A stretch of DNA of 49,695 nt from a virus (lineage: Duplodnaviria; Heunggongvirae; Uroviricota; Caudoviricetes), in IMG/VR virus record IMGVR_UViG_2718218305_000004; one strand, 5' to 3'. Below, piece after piece: positions 6,001 through 9,000 of this stretch (positions are counted from its first letter, which is position 1; every line of letters starts with the position of its first letter). Position numbers: made by a program.

Positions 6001-9000
6001 AGCCTGACTCCAGCCTTTCGTTTTCAGCATCATTGCTATCCGATTTTCTGTGCTTTTTACATTCTTCATGGTGAGTTCCTGTCGAAGCTTTATACACATA
6101 AATATTAACTTGATTTTAGTGTATTCGATCCTTTTGAAACTTGCATGTTAATTTATTCTTGATGTATTCTTGATTTGTAAAGTTAATGTTGGAGCTGCGC
6201 TGTGATAAAACTGAATGATTACGACATGTTGCGTAAATTGATCCCTCAAAACGCCATAGCGAGATACATCGGTGTTACGCCACAAGCGGTGAATCTGTGG
6301 TTTTCTAAAAACTCCGTTCCTTCTCGTTTTGTTTTACGGGTGTGTGAATTGGTTGAATGGAAGGTTACTCCGCATGGGTTAAGACCTGATCTATACCCTT
6401 ATCCCGAAGATGGAATTCCTGATTCGTTACGAAAATCAAACGGTATTACCAGAGATTAAAGACTGACTGTCACAAGCAGTAATTCACGATGAATACGTTT
6501 TGGCGTGAGTTCTGAAATGTCATCCTCAAGGAGCAATCAGATGAACACCGCAATTTTTAACGATAAAGCATCCATGACCAGCGTTGAGATTGCAGAGCTG
6601 GTGGGCAGCCAACACAAAGATGTTAAACGCAGCATTGAAAGACTCATGGGGAAGGGAGTTATCCGAAGTGCGCCAATGGCGAATTTCGAAATAATCAACA
6701 ACTTAGGATTGAAAAGAAATGTAGCTGCTTACGTATTCGAAGGTGAACAAGGCAAACGCGACAGTATCATTGTTGTCGCGCAGATTTGCCCTGAATTCAC
6801 CGCCCGCTTGGTAGACCGCTGGCGTGAACTGGAAGAACAGATCCGTAAGCCAATGAGCGAAATCGAAATGGTTGCCGCGATGGCTCTTGAAGCCGTTCGC
6901 CAACAGAAACGGATCACTCAGGTGGAAGAAAAAGTCATCCACGTTGCTGAAACAGTTGAGCAAATTAAAAAGGGCACTATTCGTGAGGGCTATGCCGGAT
7001 ATCGCCAACTGAAAGCAAAAACCGGTTTGTCAGATGATAAATGCTGCAATCTGGTGAACGCCTATCAAATTCCTACAGACACACATGAGTTCATGACGCC
7101 GGACGGATTGTTGTCACGTCGCGCAATTGTTGCTGTGGAACCGTTTATGGCTGCTTTTTATCGGGTTATGGAGGAAGCAGAACCGCGAGGGACTCGCTGG
7201 TATCACCCGAAAATGGGGTTATTTCAGGTTATTGGTTGGCAGCGGTGAAAAAAAGCCGGGAGTAACCCGGCTCACTCAACATCAATAACGGGGAGCTGTT
7301 TCGCATAAAACGGCTCCGAAACATCCAAGAACAGTTCTAAAGATATCAGCAGCTATATGATCATTTCAAGACCAAATATTGATTCTGCAATTTCGGGACG
7401 TTACACTGTCTCCGCACCTTATAAAGCGGGTGCCGGGGGTCGCAGCCCGGAATTGCTCGAGGCGATATACGACGCGCCAGCGTCTTTTTTATCGTCCATG
7501 CTCGCGCACGCCAGAATTATGGTGGGCTGGGCAGGGGAGCCGAAAGGCTCGCCGGTTTCCTTGAGCGCCGGTACTGCGAACCCTGTTCAGTTCACCACCC
7601 ATGAGTTTCGCAGCTCCGGTGGTGGAAGTTTTTCACTGCTCAAGGAGGCTGCCATCATGGCTACAGTCCCAACTTCCCCATACCTGAAAATTGAAGTTGT
7701 CAACGGCAAGGCCGTTATTTTCTCCCTGCATGTTGCCTGCCACTTTAAGCGCATGCACCAGAACATCGTCGACAAAATCGAGTATCTGAACTGCTCACGC
7801 GAGTTTTTTACCCGCAATTTCATACCGGGTACTTATCACATCTACGGTGACTCCCTGCGTGGTTATTACATCACCCTTGATGGTCTGATGATGCTTCAGC
7901 TTGGGTTAAGTCTACGCACAATGCGGTACTACGAGAGCTGCATTGAAGCATTCCATGAGGCAGAAATCAGCCTCAGTCACACCGCTTTCCGCCGTAATCA
8001 ATGGGAGGTGCGCCCATGATTCGCCGCGTCGTTAATTCCCTGTATCACCGATACAACCGTTGCCCCCGTGTGGGGCAGTGGTTCACCACCAGCAACGGCC
8101 ACGTTCTGCGGGTTTGCCTGGTCAATACAGAAAGCCAGATGGTTGTCTGCCAGGTTCAGGGACGTACTCATACCCTGAGTTATCCGCTGGTGGCTTTTCA
8201 GTCCGGGAAAATGTTTAAGCGTCTGGGAGGTGGCTATGCGTCCGTCTGATCTTCTGCTCGATTTTGGGCATCCGGTTGCTTATTACCCTGGGCTCGTTAA
8301 ATACATGGGAAGTCCGCACGCTGTTATTTTCTTTGGTCAGATTTTTTACTGGCAGGATAAAGCACATGCAGCGGAAGGCGTACATAAAACGCGTGAAGAG
8401 ATACAACACGAAACTGGACTTACATTTGAACAACAGGCTGTAGCGCGTAAGCATCTTGTGTCCAGAGGCATTTTGGTTGAAACCAACAAGCGTCTTGAGC
8501 ACAAAATGTTCTACCGTATAGATTGTGAGCGCCTTAATGAAATTATCAATGAAAACAATCAGTTTTCCCGAAATGGGGAAACCCGTTTTCGGGAAACTGT
8601 AAAACCCAATTTCGCGGAGGAGGGAAAGCCTTCACCGCGGACACGGGAAACCACTCGCCGCGGAGAAGGGAAAACCAATTTCGATCTTACAGAGAATACA
8701 ACAGAGATTACTTCAGAGAATACTACAGAGAGTAAAAACACTATTGGCGCATCCGCTGACGCGTCTGCACCAGCGCGTTCTGCCCGACAGGAATATTCAC
8801 CGGAATTTGAACAGGCCTGGCAGGAATATCCCAAACGTGCTGGTGGTAATTCCAAGTCAGCAGCCTTCAAAGCCTGGAAAGCCCGAATCAGGGAAGGTGT
8901 GACACCAGAAACCATGCTCAACGGTGTGAAACGCTATGCTGCCTGGGTGCGTGTCTCAGGAAATACCGGCACCCAGTTCGTGAAGCAGGCGTCGACGTTC

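What the first reader, a model, noticed from the sequence alone, without database searches (positions are those of the whole stretch)
7248..7656. Antisense oop-like terminator abutting the Rha-family gene, followed by ~400 bp with no convincing ORF
A clean minus-strand terminator (6-bp GC stem at 7255-7271 plus a U7 tract) ends exactly at the stop codon of the Rha-family gene, matching the position of lambda oop RNA at the end of cII. The next 400 bp carry only a low-complexity reading frame with no ribosome-binding site, before a well-signalled ATG at 7657. This looks like a small antisense RNA locus or a structured leader rather than coding sequence.
Basis: partly seen in the sequence, partly recalled or inferred. 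Interest (0 to 1): 0.4.

Follow-up and report, generated by a model that had tools for sequence, protein, structure and literature searches.

The report
Phage IsrK/C4 antisense-RNA switch, mis-annotated
The "empty" 400 bases are a known type of phage RNA switch (IsrK plus C4 antisense RNA) that blocks the ribosome site of the next gene, although databases label it a protein. The minus-strand terminator beside it is real and may end a small, still unproven RNA.

Summary
A 6-bp GC hairpin (7255-7271) with a U7 run (7248-7254, minus strand) starts at the last base of the Rha gene's stop codon. The frame 7357-7656 has no ribosome-binding site, and ATG 7657 has a strong one.

The 400 bp hold two plus-strand Rfam families above their curated thresholds: isrK (7414-7490) and C4 antisense RNA (7515-7602). 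This is the P1 immI / P4 immunity / Gifsy-1 isrK architecture. C4 elements b' and a' are complementary to b2 (7637-7648, covering the Shine-Dalgarno) and a2, and to decoy sites b1/a1 inside IsrK. Across 42 distinct relatives these sites co-vary three ways.

GenBank and RefSeq call the stretch an "ash family protein" (Pfam PF10554). It shows no amino-acid-level selection (pN/pS 0.79, against 0.17 for the downstream ORF). Phage P4's old "cI" ORF, which overlaps the Rfam C4 match, hits the same Pfam family. The frame is nevertheless kept open in all 81 loci examined, which is unexplained.

The minus-strand terminator is conserved together with an extended -10 promoter and a 5' box, which predicts an ~85-nt RNA. 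That RNA is plausible but unproven, and it is not a lambda oop homologue.

The parts
6541..7248 (+). Upstream Rha/Ant-like gene (235 aa); stop codon TGA at 7246-7248
   Evidence: Pfam Phage_pRha 32.9 bits and PHROG 63 'anti-repressor Ant' 7.5e-46. Annotated as a CDS in LC567829.
7248..7273 (-). Intrinsic-terminator-like hairpin read on the minus strand: stem 7255-7260/7266-7271 (extendable to 7273), loop AGTAA, U7 run 7254-7248
   Evidence: Kept in 26 distinct spacers with 6 loop variants and a U run of 6-8. The one stem change gives G.U on the minus strand and C.A on the plus strand.
7248..7333 (-). Candidate ~85-nt minus-strand small RNA (inferred, not shown): 5' box, inner hairpin, U-rich linker, terminator
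   Evidence: Folds at -30 kcal/mol, z = -3.7. Signals conserved. No Rfam match. No expression evidence.
7292..7317 (.). Inner hairpin GGAGCTGTTTCG-CATA-AAACGGCTCC
   Evidence: Replaced by two unrelated inverted repeats at the same place in spacer types B and C. The strand of action is unresolved, because the variants point both ways.
7323..7332 (-). Conserved box GUUCUUGGAU at the predicted 5' end of the minus-strand RNA
   Evidence: Present in 25 of 26 distinct spacers (1 has GUUCUUGGCU), 7 or 13 nt after the -10.
7340..7369 (-). Promoter-like site for the minus-strand RNA: -35 TTGAAA (7369-7364), 18-nt spacing, TG (7348-7347), -10 TATCTT (7345-7340)
   Evidence: 9 of 12 matches, with TG. The same scan scores the real lambda pO at 9 of 12 with TG. 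The -35, the spacing, the TG and the key -10 positions are kept in 26 distinct spacers.
7357..7656 (+). Open frame annotated as the 'Ash' part of an 'ash family protein'. It is the conceptual translation of the IsrK/C4 region. It is kept open but is not under amino-acid selection.
   Evidence: Pfam PF10554 58-65 bits. pN/pS 0.79 in frame against 0.71 and 0.95 off frame. No third-position excess. 0 stop sites in this frame against 8 and 11 in the other two.
7379..7407 (+). Promoter of isrK: -35 TTGATT (7379-7384), 17 nt, -10 TACACT (7402-7407). Predicted transcription start is G7414.
   Evidence: Read from the sequence. It places the start at the first base of the Rfam isrK match. Nearly invariant in relatives. 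The mosaic boundary of the module lies just to its left. It scores 8 of 12, below the scan threshold.
7414..7490 (+). IsrK small RNA (equivalent to c4-a1b1 and to P4 seqA). Carries decoy sites a1 (7439-7445) and b1 (7454-7465) and its own terminator (7471-7484 plus T6 at 7485-7490).
   Evidence: Rfam RF01394 56.4 bits against a gathering score of 50. Terminator. a1-a' and b1-b' are 92.7% paired with 10 compensatory pairs.
7515..7602 (+). C4 antisense RNA: 17-bp outer stem, two hairpins, loop b' (7556-7567), junction a' (7574-7580)
   Evidence: Rfam RF01695 84.4 bits against a gathering score of 45. Fold -46.9 kcal/mol, z = -4.7. Stems 100% paired with compensatory changes.
7519..7521 (+). AUG inside the 5' strand of C4, the counterpart of the Gifsy-1 orf45 start; here in frame with ATG 7657
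   Evidence: Gifsy-1 comparison (PMC4825925). The distance to the main AUG is 138, 141 or 144 nt in all 81 loci, always a multiple of 3, with no in-frame stop.
7607..7613 (+). Target site a2 (UUCGCAG), complementary to a'
   Evidence: 7 bp at -10.5 kcal/mol. 5 of 7 positions show compensatory changes and 100% of cells are paired.
7637..7648 (+). Target site b2 (UGCUCAAGGAGG), complementary to loop b'. It includes the Shine-Dalgarno sequence AAGGAGG at 7642-7648.
   Evidence: -17.2 kcal/mol, the best partner of b' anywhere in the window. 5 of 12 positions are compensatory and 98.8% of cells are paired.
7657..8019 (+). Controlled gene: a 120-aa Rha-domain regulator. Its stop overlaps the next start (ATGA at 8016-8019), and the chain leads into the replication genes.
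   Evidence: pN/pS 0.17, with variation concentrated at third codon positions. PHROG 995 1.9e-57; Pfam Phage_pRha 29.5 bits, just under its cut-off of 29.9. ORF layout.

Best explanation
Positions 7376-7656 are an RNA-based regulatory (secondary immunity) module. It is the type known from P1/P7 immI, P4 immunity and the Gifsy-1 isrK locus. Here it is inserted in the early right operon of a Stx2a lambdoid phage, just upstream of a Rha-domain regulator and the replication genes.

Proposed mechanism, plus strand:
- A promoter at 7379-7407 starts transcription at 7414.
- Most transcripts stop at the IsrK terminator and give the 77-nt IsrK RNA.
- Read-through transcripts carry C4 (7515-7602), which is excised as a stable RNA. 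This step is inferred from P1, where RNase P processes C4.
- C4 pairs through loop b' and junction a' with b2 and a2 in the leader. This covers the Shine-Dalgarno sequence of ATG 7657. It shuts off translation of the Rha-domain gene and, through coupling or polarity, probably of the genes behind it.
- IsrK carries mimic sites a1 and b1. It can therefore pair with C4 in cis or in trans and relieve the block. This is the activation shown experimentally in Gifsy-1.
- The a and b sequences are specificity determinants. They differ between related prophages.

The 'Ash' reading frame across this region is a by-product of the RNA genes. It is kept open, perhaps because ribosomes must be able to read through it, but its peptide sequence is not selected.

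Minus strand: the terminator at 7248-7273 belongs to a separate neighbouring unit. That unit is a promoter-like site divergent from the isrK promoter (7369-7340), which predicts an ~85-nt RNA ending at the Rha stop codon.

What is shown and what is inferred:
- Shown: the family matches, the structures, the complementarities, their covariation, the coding statistics, and the conservation of the signals.
- Inferred: processing, the direction of regulation, the polar effect on replication genes, and the existence of the minus-strand RNA.
For: Family identity:
- Rfam isrK and C4 both score above their gathering thresholds, with complete models.
- The same pair is found in P4, Gifsy-1, mEp460 and ArgO145. 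It is annotated in APSE phages (PMC7313666).

Anatomy:
- It matches the annotated P1 order a1-b1-c4-a2-b2-start codon.

Covariation across 42 distinct sequences:
- Structure plus a'-a2 and b'-b2: 99.7% of cells paired, 20 pairs with double changes, 0 of 500 shuffles as good; slid controls give 37-44% paired.
- a1-a' and b1-b': 92.7% paired, 10 compensatory pairs.
- At least 5 a-types and 6 b-types assort independently.

Target:
- b2 contains the Shine-Dalgarno sequence and is the best partner of b' in the whole 49.7-kb window.

Coding tests:
- pN/pS 0.17 for 7657-8016, against 0.79, 0.71 and 0.95 for the three frames of the leader.
- Third-position entropy excess appears only in the ORF.

The 'Ash' label:
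- P4's old 'cI' ORF, which overlaps the Rfam C4 match at 8420-8507, hits Pfam Phage_ASH at 59.7 bits.

Experimental precedent:
- PMC4825925 reports compensatory mutants G28A/C162U and G31A/C159U. By my mapping onto the Gifsy-1 locus these fall in a1 and a'.

Minus-strand unit:
-, with the lambda control.
Against: - No transcript, processing or translation data for this phage could be consulted.
- The frame through the leader is open in all 81 loci, with spacer lengths always a multiple of 3.
- In other genomic contexts the leader's ATG has a strong Shine-Dalgarno sequence and overlaps the preceding stop as ATGA. Part of the region is therefore probably translated in some transcripts, and 'non-coding' is too simple.
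- The isrK promoter scores only 8 of 12 and was assigned by eye.
- Published mechanisms for this architecture differ: translational block in P1, transcription termination in P4, activation in trans in Gifsy-1. Sequence alone cannot say which dominates here.
- For the minus-strand RNA, variants of the inner hairpin support the minus strand in type B and the plus strand in type A.
Confidence: 0.8

Rival explanations
1. The region is what the databases say: the N-terminal 'Ash' domain of a 220-aa Ash-Rha protein translated from ATG 7357. On this view the RNA-family matches are incidental.
For: - Uninterrupted ORF 7357-8019.
- Pfam PF10554 scores 65 bits against a cut-off of 26.
- 645 database proteins match, mostly named 'ash family protein'.
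- The frame is open in all 81 loci, with in-frame length changes and no stop sites, against 8 and 11 stop sites in the other frames.
- In other contexts the ATG has a strong Shine-Dalgarno sequence and ATGA coupling. In mEp460 the frame is fused to a longer ORF.
Against: - No amino-acid-level selection: pN/pS 0.79 is no better than the off frames, against 0.17 for the Rha domain. There is no third-position excess.
- Nucleotide changes co-vary as RNA pairs, three ways.
- No Shine-Dalgarno sequence precedes 7357 in this window.
- The frame is closed in P1, APSE-8, ArgO145 and Gifsy-1, which carry the same RNAs.
- The Pfam family also matches P4's obsolete 'cI' ORF, which lies over the Rfam C4 match.
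- The AlphaFold model gives pLDDT 23-30 for residues 1-111, but the whole model is poor, so this is only weak evidence.
- No solved relative exists.
Confidence: 0.1
2. One reading: the key feature is a lambda-oop-like antisense RNA on the minus strand, ending at 7248, which regulates the Rha gene or the early operon.
For: - A strong minus-strand terminator abuts the stop codon.
- A promoter-like site with an extended -10 lies 92 nt upstream. It scores the same as the real lambda pO in the same scan.
- The predicted length of ~85 nt compares with 77 nt for oop.
- Promoter, box and terminator are kept in 26 distinct spacers of three sequence types.
- The minus-strand fold is more stable than the plus-strand fold in types B and C, and two variants are G.U-compatible only on the minus strand.
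Against: - It does not overlap any coding sequence beyond the last base of the stop codon, so it cannot act on the Rha ORF as oop acts on cII.
- There is no significant similarity to lambda oop in the 5' part.
- There is no Rfam match and no paper was found.
- Two type-A variants fit the plus strand better.
- It explains only 7248-7369, not the rest of the 400 bp.
- Distant Rha homologues lack any such terminator.
Confidence: 0.45
3. The hairpin is only an insulator, or a stabiliser of the Rha mRNA 3' end. It would stop stray antisense transcription from entering the immunity region, with no dedicated small RNA.
For: - In the phiP27-type arrangement a different minus-strand terminator sits at the same place after the Rha stop, followed by a gene rather than this spacer.
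- In the sample, the terminator always travels with the 3' end of the Rha gene.
Against: This view does not explain the conserved promoter-like site, the conserved 5' box, or the retained inner hairpin in three spacer types.
Confidence: 0.25
4. The spacer 7270-7317 is a nutR-like site for N-type antitermination on the plus strand: a boxA-like sequence GCTCACTCAAC followed by a boxB-like hairpin.
For: - There is a loose resemblance to boxA. This rests on my memory of the consensus, which was not tested here.
- A hairpin with an A-rich loop lies 11 nt downstream. It varies between spacer types, as boxB does between phages.
Against: - There is no second (nutL) copy of either element in the window.
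- There is no N-like ORF to the left of the repressor gene.
- The boxA match is poor.
Confidence: 0.05

Closest known systems
P1/P7 immI region (c4-icd-ant)
   Same: - Same order of elements: promoter, a1, b1, C4 (a', b'), a2, b2 over the ribosome-binding site, then the regulated gene.
- Same Rfam family.
- Specificity is set by the a and b sequences, as between P1 and P7. That P1/P7 difference is established knowledge (Citron and Schuster 1990), not tested here.
   Different: - Here a1 and b1 lie in a discrete terminated small RNA (IsrK).
- The regulated gene is a 120-aa Rha-domain protein followed by replication genes, not icd-ant.
- The frame through C4 is open and in frame with the target gene. 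In P1 it closes after 14 codons.
- The host element is a lambdoid Stx2a phage, and the module sits inside the early right operon.
Gifsy-1 isrK-orf45(STnc1160)-anrP locus (PMC4825925)
   Same: - isrK and C4 matches in the same order.
- An AUG sits in the 5' strand of C4 (orf45).
- An antirepressor-like gene lies downstream.
- By my mapping, the published compensatory mutants fall in a1 and a'.
   Different: - In Gifsy-1, orf45 is 45 codons long and stops over the anrP start (ATGA, out of frame). Here the equivalent frame runs straight into the Rha-domain ORF.
- Position in the phage differs: downstream of Q in Gifsy-1, between the immunity and replication genes here.
Phage P4 immunity (seqA - CI RNA - seqC)
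   Same: - The Rfam C4 model matches P4 at 8420-8507, where P4's CI RNA lies by my recollection of the P4 literature. The Rfam isrK model matches the seqA region.
- The RNA controls expression of downstream replication genes.
- The region was once read as a protein gene and gives the Pfam 'Ash' hit.
   Different: - P4 acts by premature transcription termination. This is from the literature as quoted in PMC4825925.
- Here b2 overlaps a Shine-Dalgarno sequence, which points to a translational block. Termination was not testable.
Lambda OOP RNA
   Same: - Leftward, ~80 nt.
- Extended -10 promoter and strong terminator.
- Located between early regulatory genes and replication genes.
   Different: - No overlap with the upstream coding sequence, against ~55 nt of cII for oop.
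- No cII gene here.
- No significant sequence similarity in the 5' part.
- Existence unproven.
APSE phage isrK + C4 upstream of a BRO gene (PMC7313666)
   Same: Same two RNAs, explicitly annotated, upstream of an antirepressor-type gene.
   Different: - Different regulated gene family (Bro-N).
- The frame upstream of the target gene is closed.

Membership tests
C4 antisense RNA (Rfam RF01695) | Covariance-model score above the curated gathering score, over the full model | tested here: met
   84.4 bits against 45, model positions 1-87 of 87.
C4 antisense RNA (Rfam RF01695) | Long outer stem enclosing two hairpins, supported by covariation | tested here: met
   All three helices are 100% paired in 42 distinct sequences. 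Hairpin 1 has 3 compensatory pairs. The outer stem shows many G.U/G-C exchanges.
C4 antisense RNA (Rfam RF01695) | Exposed a' and b' complementary to a2 and b2 in the same transcript, with b2 over the ribosome-binding site | tested here: met
   a'-a2 is 7 bp and b'-b2 is up to 12 bp including AAGGAGG. Both co-vary.
C4 antisense RNA (Rfam RF01695) | Upstream mimic sites a1 and b1 | tested here: met
   a1 at 7439-7445 and b1 at 7454-7465 inside IsrK. 92.7% paired, with 10 compensatory pairs.
C4 antisense RNA (Rfam RF01695) | Excised from a longer precursor (RNase P in P1) and acts as a repressor | not testable with these tools
   Needs RNA end mapping and reporter assays.
C4 antisense RNA (Rfam RF01695) | Controls an antirepressor-type gene | tested here: inconclusive
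   The downstream ORF is a Rha-domain protein (PHROG 995 'transcriptional regulator' 1.9e-57; Pfam Rha 29.5 bits against a cut-off of 29.9). Relatives are annotated as antirepressors. Its function is untested.
isrK Hfq-binding RNA (Rfam RF01394) / c4-a1b1 (RF03163) | Covariance-model score above the gathering score | tested here: met
   isrK scores 56.4 bits against 50. c4-a1b1 was not reported for the window. It was reported for Gifsy-1.
isrK Hfq-binding RNA (Rfam RF01394) / c4-a1b1 (RF03163) | Own promoter and intrinsic terminator giving a ~77-nt RNA, with read-through into the downstream leader | tested here: met
   TTGATT-17-TACACT places the start at 7414. The terminator is at 7471-7484 plus T6. 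These are sequence signals only; transcripts were not seen.
isrK Hfq-binding RNA (Rfam RF01394) / c4-a1b1 (RF03163) | Binds Hfq and activates translation in trans | not testable with these tools
   Known for Gifsy-1 (PMC4825925).
Lambda OOP RNA | Leftward promoter plus intrinsic terminator giving a ~77-nt RNA between the early regulatory and replication genes | tested here: met
   Signals are at 7369-7340 and 7273-7248, and the predicted length is ~85 nt. The same scan recovers lambda pO and oop. No transcript evidence.
Lambda OOP RNA | Complementary to the 3' coding end of the upstream gene (cII) | tested here: not met
   The overlap is limited to the last base of the stop codon. There is no cII homologue in this position.
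Lambda OOP RNA | Sequence homology to oop | tested here: not met
   Global alignment against shuffles: 58 of 2000 as good. The 5' part is worse than random. Only the terminator part is similar.
Ash protein family (Pfam PF10554) | Profile score above the gathering cut-off | tested here: met
   58-65 bits against 26.
Ash protein family (Pfam PF10554) | Evolves as a protein: purifying selection on amino acids in its own frame | tested here: not met
   pN/pS is 0.79 in frame and 0.71 and 0.95 off frame, against 0.17 for the adjacent ORF. Entropy by codon position is 34.4, 30.5 and 28.7.
Ash protein family (Pfam PF10554) | Folds as a domain | tested here: inconclusive
   The AlphaFold2 model has mean pLDDT 36.7, with residues 1-111 at 23-30. 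The alignment is shallow and the whole model is poor.

The most novel reading that the evidence does not exclude
The IsrK and C4 RNA genes may be deliberately embedded in a reading frame that must stay translatable.
- Transcripts from the internal isrK promoter would be non-coding riboregulators.
- Transcripts that arrive from the early operon would be translated straight through the RNA genes. In sister phages they start at a strong Shine-Dalgarno sequence with ATGA coupling.
- That translation would prevent IsrK termination and C4 folding, and would bypass the C4 block.

On this reading one DNA segment switches between 'RNA switch' and 'mRNA' according to its promoter of origin.

In addition, the divergent minus-strand unit would be a new ~85-nt phage small RNA with a conserved 5' seed.
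Probability: 0.3. Interest if true: 0.6.

Novelty: new member of a known kind. Interest (0 to 1): 0.35.

Why it matters
- Where the module sits. It lies between the repressor region and the replication genes of a Shiga-toxin phage. Whatever it controls bears on prophage induction and hence on toxin release.
- How common it is. Sequences matching this 305-nt module (at any coverage) occur in 3401 of 5426 complete E. coli genomes, with up to 10 matches per genome; 1756 genomes hold a match covering at least 80% of it. The a and b specificity sites are diverse and recombine freely. That suggests a system keeping co-resident prophages from cross-talking.
- How it is annotated. Current Stx-phage genomics treats the stretch as an 'Ash domain of unknown function' (PMC8951638), and RefSeq names hundreds of 'ash family proteins'. 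The tests here indicate that this label is largely the translation of RNA genes. That matters for annotation and for Pfam PF10554.
- What is new. The minus-strand small RNA, if real, would be an additional unrecognised phage RNA.

Tried and rejected
- Nut-site reading of the spacer. Rejected: no second copy in the window and no N-like gene.
- Homology to lambda oop. Not significant outside the terminator.
- Targets of the 5' box within the phage. Only chance-level matches: 4 found against 3.2 expected. One lies in the repressor coding region at 5671-5680 and was not pursued.
- Host targets. Could not be searched, because no whole genome was available to scripts.
- Literature search by sequence string. 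It returned only unrelated papers.
- Known EHEC/EPEC prophage small RNAs (EcOnc/AgvB/AsxR, Pas, StxS). These lie in late or moron regions, not here.
- Whether the terminator is a general feature of this Rha gene. It is not: in Yersinia, Providencia, Proteus, Atlantibacter, Shigella and E. coli relatives the stop overlaps or directly abuts the next gene.
- Structure prediction of the 220-aa product. The model was too poor to decide. No solved homologue was found.
- A first duplex scan with whole C4. It was uninformative because it ignores C4's own fold. It was replaced by loop-only duplexes.
- Strand assignment of the inner hairpin from natural variants. The result was mixed.
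Full report
**Context.** The window is a Stx2a-converting lambdoid phage, 100% identical over the region to LC567829 and five other records. Around the finding lie, in order:
- a CI-type repressor (5380-6099, minus strand);
- a Cro/YdaS-like gene (6202-6459);
- a 235-aa Rha/Ant-like gene (6541-7248);
- the region in question;
- a 120-aa Rha-domain ORF (7657-8019);
- a 77-aa ORF, then replication genes.

**Observation.**
- The stem GCCGGG/CCCGGC lies at 7255-7260/7266-7271.
- The A7 run at 7248-7254 begins with the last base of the stop codon TGA 7246-7248.
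- Read on the minus strand, this is a hairpin followed by U7. On the plus strand no U run follows.
- Terminator-like hits as such are not enriched in the surrounding 4 kb (6 found, 4.5 expected). The case for this one therefore rests on its quality and its conservation.
- The frame 7357-7656 is open and continuous with ATG 7657. No Shine-Dalgarno sequence precedes 7357, and AAGGAGG (7642-7648) precedes ATG 7657.

**What the 400 bp are.** A scan against Rfam finds two plus-strand families above their curated thresholds, both with complete models:
- isrK at 7414-7490 (56.4 bits, threshold 50);
- C4 antisense RNA at 7515-7602 (84.4 bits, threshold 45).

C4 folds at -46.9 kcal/mol (z = -4.7). IsrK ends in its own terminator, 7471-7484 plus T6. 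A promoter read from the sequence, TTGATT-17-TACACT (7379-7407), puts the transcription start at 7414, the first base of the isrK match. In most related phages the BLAST similarity begins just left of this promoter, which marks a mosaic module boundary.

**Anatomy against P1.** The richly annotated P1 genome gives the reference order: promoter, a1, b1, c4, a2, b2, start codon of icd. The window has the same order.

| Element | Window position | Note |
|---|---|---|
| a1 | 7439-7445 | inside IsrK |
| b1 | 7454-7465 | inside IsrK |
| b' | 7556-7567 | loop in C4 |
| a' | 7574-7580 | junction in C4 |
| a2 | 7607-7613 | in the leader |
| b2 | 7637-7648 | contains the Shine-Dalgarno sequence |

- The b'-b2 duplex (-17.2 kcal/mol) is the best partner of the b' loop anywhere in the 49.7-kb window. 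The next unrelated site scores -14.7.

**Covariation.** Homologues of the downstream ORF were fetched from IMG/VR (80 loci). They gave 60 distinct leaders. In 42 distinct gap-free sequences:
- The intramolecular helices plus a'-a2 and b'-b2 are 99.7% paired, with 20 pairs changed on both sides. No shuffle of 500 was as good, and slid controls gave 37-44% paired.
- a1-a' and b1-b' are 92.7% paired, with 10 compensatory pairs.
- There are at least five a-types (for example UCGCAG, UUGGAAC, UUGGCGU, UUUGCAC, UGAGAC). There are at least six b-types (GCUCAAGG, GCAUACGG, GUCAACGG, GAUCAAGG, GUUAUCGG, GUUACAGG). They assort independently, and all three copies change together.

This is the P1/P7 heteroimmunity logic on a larger scale.

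The same pair of Rfam matches occurs in P4, Gifsy-1, mEp460 and ArgO145. In P4 the C4 model falls where, by my recollection of the P4 literature, the CI RNA lies, and the isrK model falls on the seqA region. In Gifsy-1 the order is isrK, C4 (which I take to be the STnc1160 species of PMC4825925, from its position downstream of IsrK), then anrP. APSE phages have the pair explicitly annotated (PMC7313666).

In Gifsy-1, IsrK acts in trans to open a translationally silent read-through transcript. The published compensatory mutants G28A/C162U and G31A/C159U (PMC4825925) fall, by my mapping onto the locus, in a1 and a'.

**Is it coding?** GenBank and RefSeq annotate 7357-8019 as a gene, usually 'ash family protein'. 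Its first 100 residues hit Pfam PF10554, and 645 database proteins resemble it. A recent Stx-phage comparison treats 'Ash' as a protein domain of unknown function (PMC8951638). Three tests speak against a conventional protein.

| Test | Downstream ORF (7657-8016) | Leader |
|---|---|---|
| Variation by codon position 1/2/3 | 14.4 / 15.2 / 46.0 bits | 34.4 / 30.5 / 28.7 bits |
| pN/pS, own frame | 0.17 | 0.79 |
| pN/pS, the two off frames | 1.5-1.6 | 0.71 and 0.95 |

- The third test concerns P4. The Pfam family also matches P4's old 'cI' ORF (59.7 bits), which lies over the Rfam C4 match.
- The AlphaFold model was too poor to add anything: mean pLDDT 36.7, residues 1-111 at 23-30.

**An unexplained residue.** The frame is nevertheless kept open.
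- All distinct leaders are open for at least 312 nt upstream of the main ATG.
- Frame 0 has no stop site, while the other frames have 8 and 11, almost all polymorphic.
- The distance from the AUG inside C4 (7519, the Gifsy-1 orf45 start) to the main AUG is 138, 141 or 144 nt in all 81 loci.
- In other upstream contexts the leader ATG has a strong Shine-Dalgarno sequence and overlaps the preceding stop as ATGA. In mEp460 the frame is fused to a longer ORF.
- The frame is closed in P1, APSE-8 and ArgO145, and in Gifsy-1 it ends after 45 codons.

My reading, which is inference, is that translation through the RNA genes matters in this lineage while the peptide does not. Two possible reasons are orf45-type coupling made in-frame, and ribosome cover for early-operon transcripts on their way to the replication genes.

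**The minus-strand element.** The spacer 7249-7375 occurs in 222 of 5426 complete E. coli genomes. It comes in three sequence types about 70% identical to each other. All 26 distinct versions keep the following:
- the 6-bp stem, with one change that is G.U on the minus strand only;
- a U run of 6-8, with six different loop sequences;
- a -35 TTGAAA (one version has TTGGAA), 18-nt spacing, a TG and TATCTT or TATTTT;
- a box GUUCUUGGAU 7 or 13 nt after the -10.

The inner hairpin is replaced by unrelated inverted repeats in the other two types. Run as a control, the same scan recovers lambda pO and the oop terminator at equal strength. The predicted RNA (about 7333 to 7248) is ~85 nt and folds with z = -3.7.

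Against a true oop relationship:
- it overlaps no coding sequence;
- it is not significantly similar to oop outside the terminator;
- natural variants of the inner hairpin point to different strands;
- more distant homologues of the Rha gene have no terminator at all;
- in phiP27 a different minus-strand terminator occupies the same spot.

No paper or Rfam family describes this RNA. I rate its existence at roughly even odds.

**Verdict.** The finding is real, but its core is a known kind of system. It is a new member of the IsrK/C4 (P1 immI, P4 immunity) family in a Stx2a phage, and public annotation mislabels it as a protein. Two things remain open: the enforced open frame across the RNA genes, and the candidate divergent small RNA.

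Noticed in passing
window 7357-7656; L171 (phage P4) 8168-8584 minus strand: Pfam PF10554 'Ash', and the RefSeq name 'ash family protein' (645 related database proteins), correspond to the conceptual translation of the IsrK/seqA and C4 RNA genes. P4's obsolete 'cI' ORF over the Rfam C4 match hits the same family at 59.7 bits.
   Followed up: yes
L087-L166, positions about 1255-1506 (equivalent to window 7411-7662): At least five a-types and six b-types of the specificity sites recombine freely among E. coli prophages. Sequences matching the module occur in 3401 of 5426 complete E. coli genomes, with up to 10 matches per genome.
   Followed up: partly
window 7519-7656 and all 81 related loci: The AUG inside the 5' strand of C4 is always in frame with the main start, at 138, 141 or 144 nt, with no stop between them. 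In Gifsy-1 the same AUG opens a separate 45-codon ORF.
   Followed up: partly
L107, L115, L132 (about 1100-1230); L126, L135, L160: In some phages the leader ORF starts with a strong Shine-Dalgarno sequence and an ATGA overlap directly after another Rha-domain gene or another gene. This gives tandem Rha-leader-Rha arrangements. The first codons (MIR...) match those of window ORF 8016-8249.
   Followed up: partly
window 7620-7627 and 7592-7598: An invariant GGTGGTGG downstream of a2 can pair with the 3' strand (CACCACC) of the C4 outer stem. This is a possible alternative helix competing with C4 formation. P1 has an analogous pair.
   Followed up: no
L039 (phiP27) 2213-2233: A different minus-strand terminator (GGCCGG...CCGGCC followed by TTTCTTATTT) sits right after the homologous Rha stop codon. 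It is followed by a BRO/Ant gene and then by IsrK-C4.
   Followed up: partly
window 16445-16660 and 14788-15036: Rfam STnc100 small RNA (153.8 bits) and three tRNA genes lie elsewhere in the window.
   Followed up: no
window 8016-8019, 8230-8249, 9144-9146: The Rha-domain ORF, the 77-aa ORF, the O-like replication gene and the DnaC-like gene overlap or abut one another. The C4-controlled start may therefore head a translationally coupled chain into the replication genes.
   Followed up: no
window 7323-7335 (minus strand): The conserved 5' box reads CUUGGAUGU, which resembles the CsrA-binding core GGAUGU. This resemblance is from memory and was not tested. In spacer type C the UUCUUGG motif occurs twice.
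   Followed up: no
window 5671-5680 (minus strand, inside the repressor gene): AUUCAAGAAC in the repressor mRNA could pair with the 5' box of the candidate small RNA over 10 nt, with one G.U. Matches of this quality are at chance level in the window (4 found, 3.2 expected).
   Followed up: no
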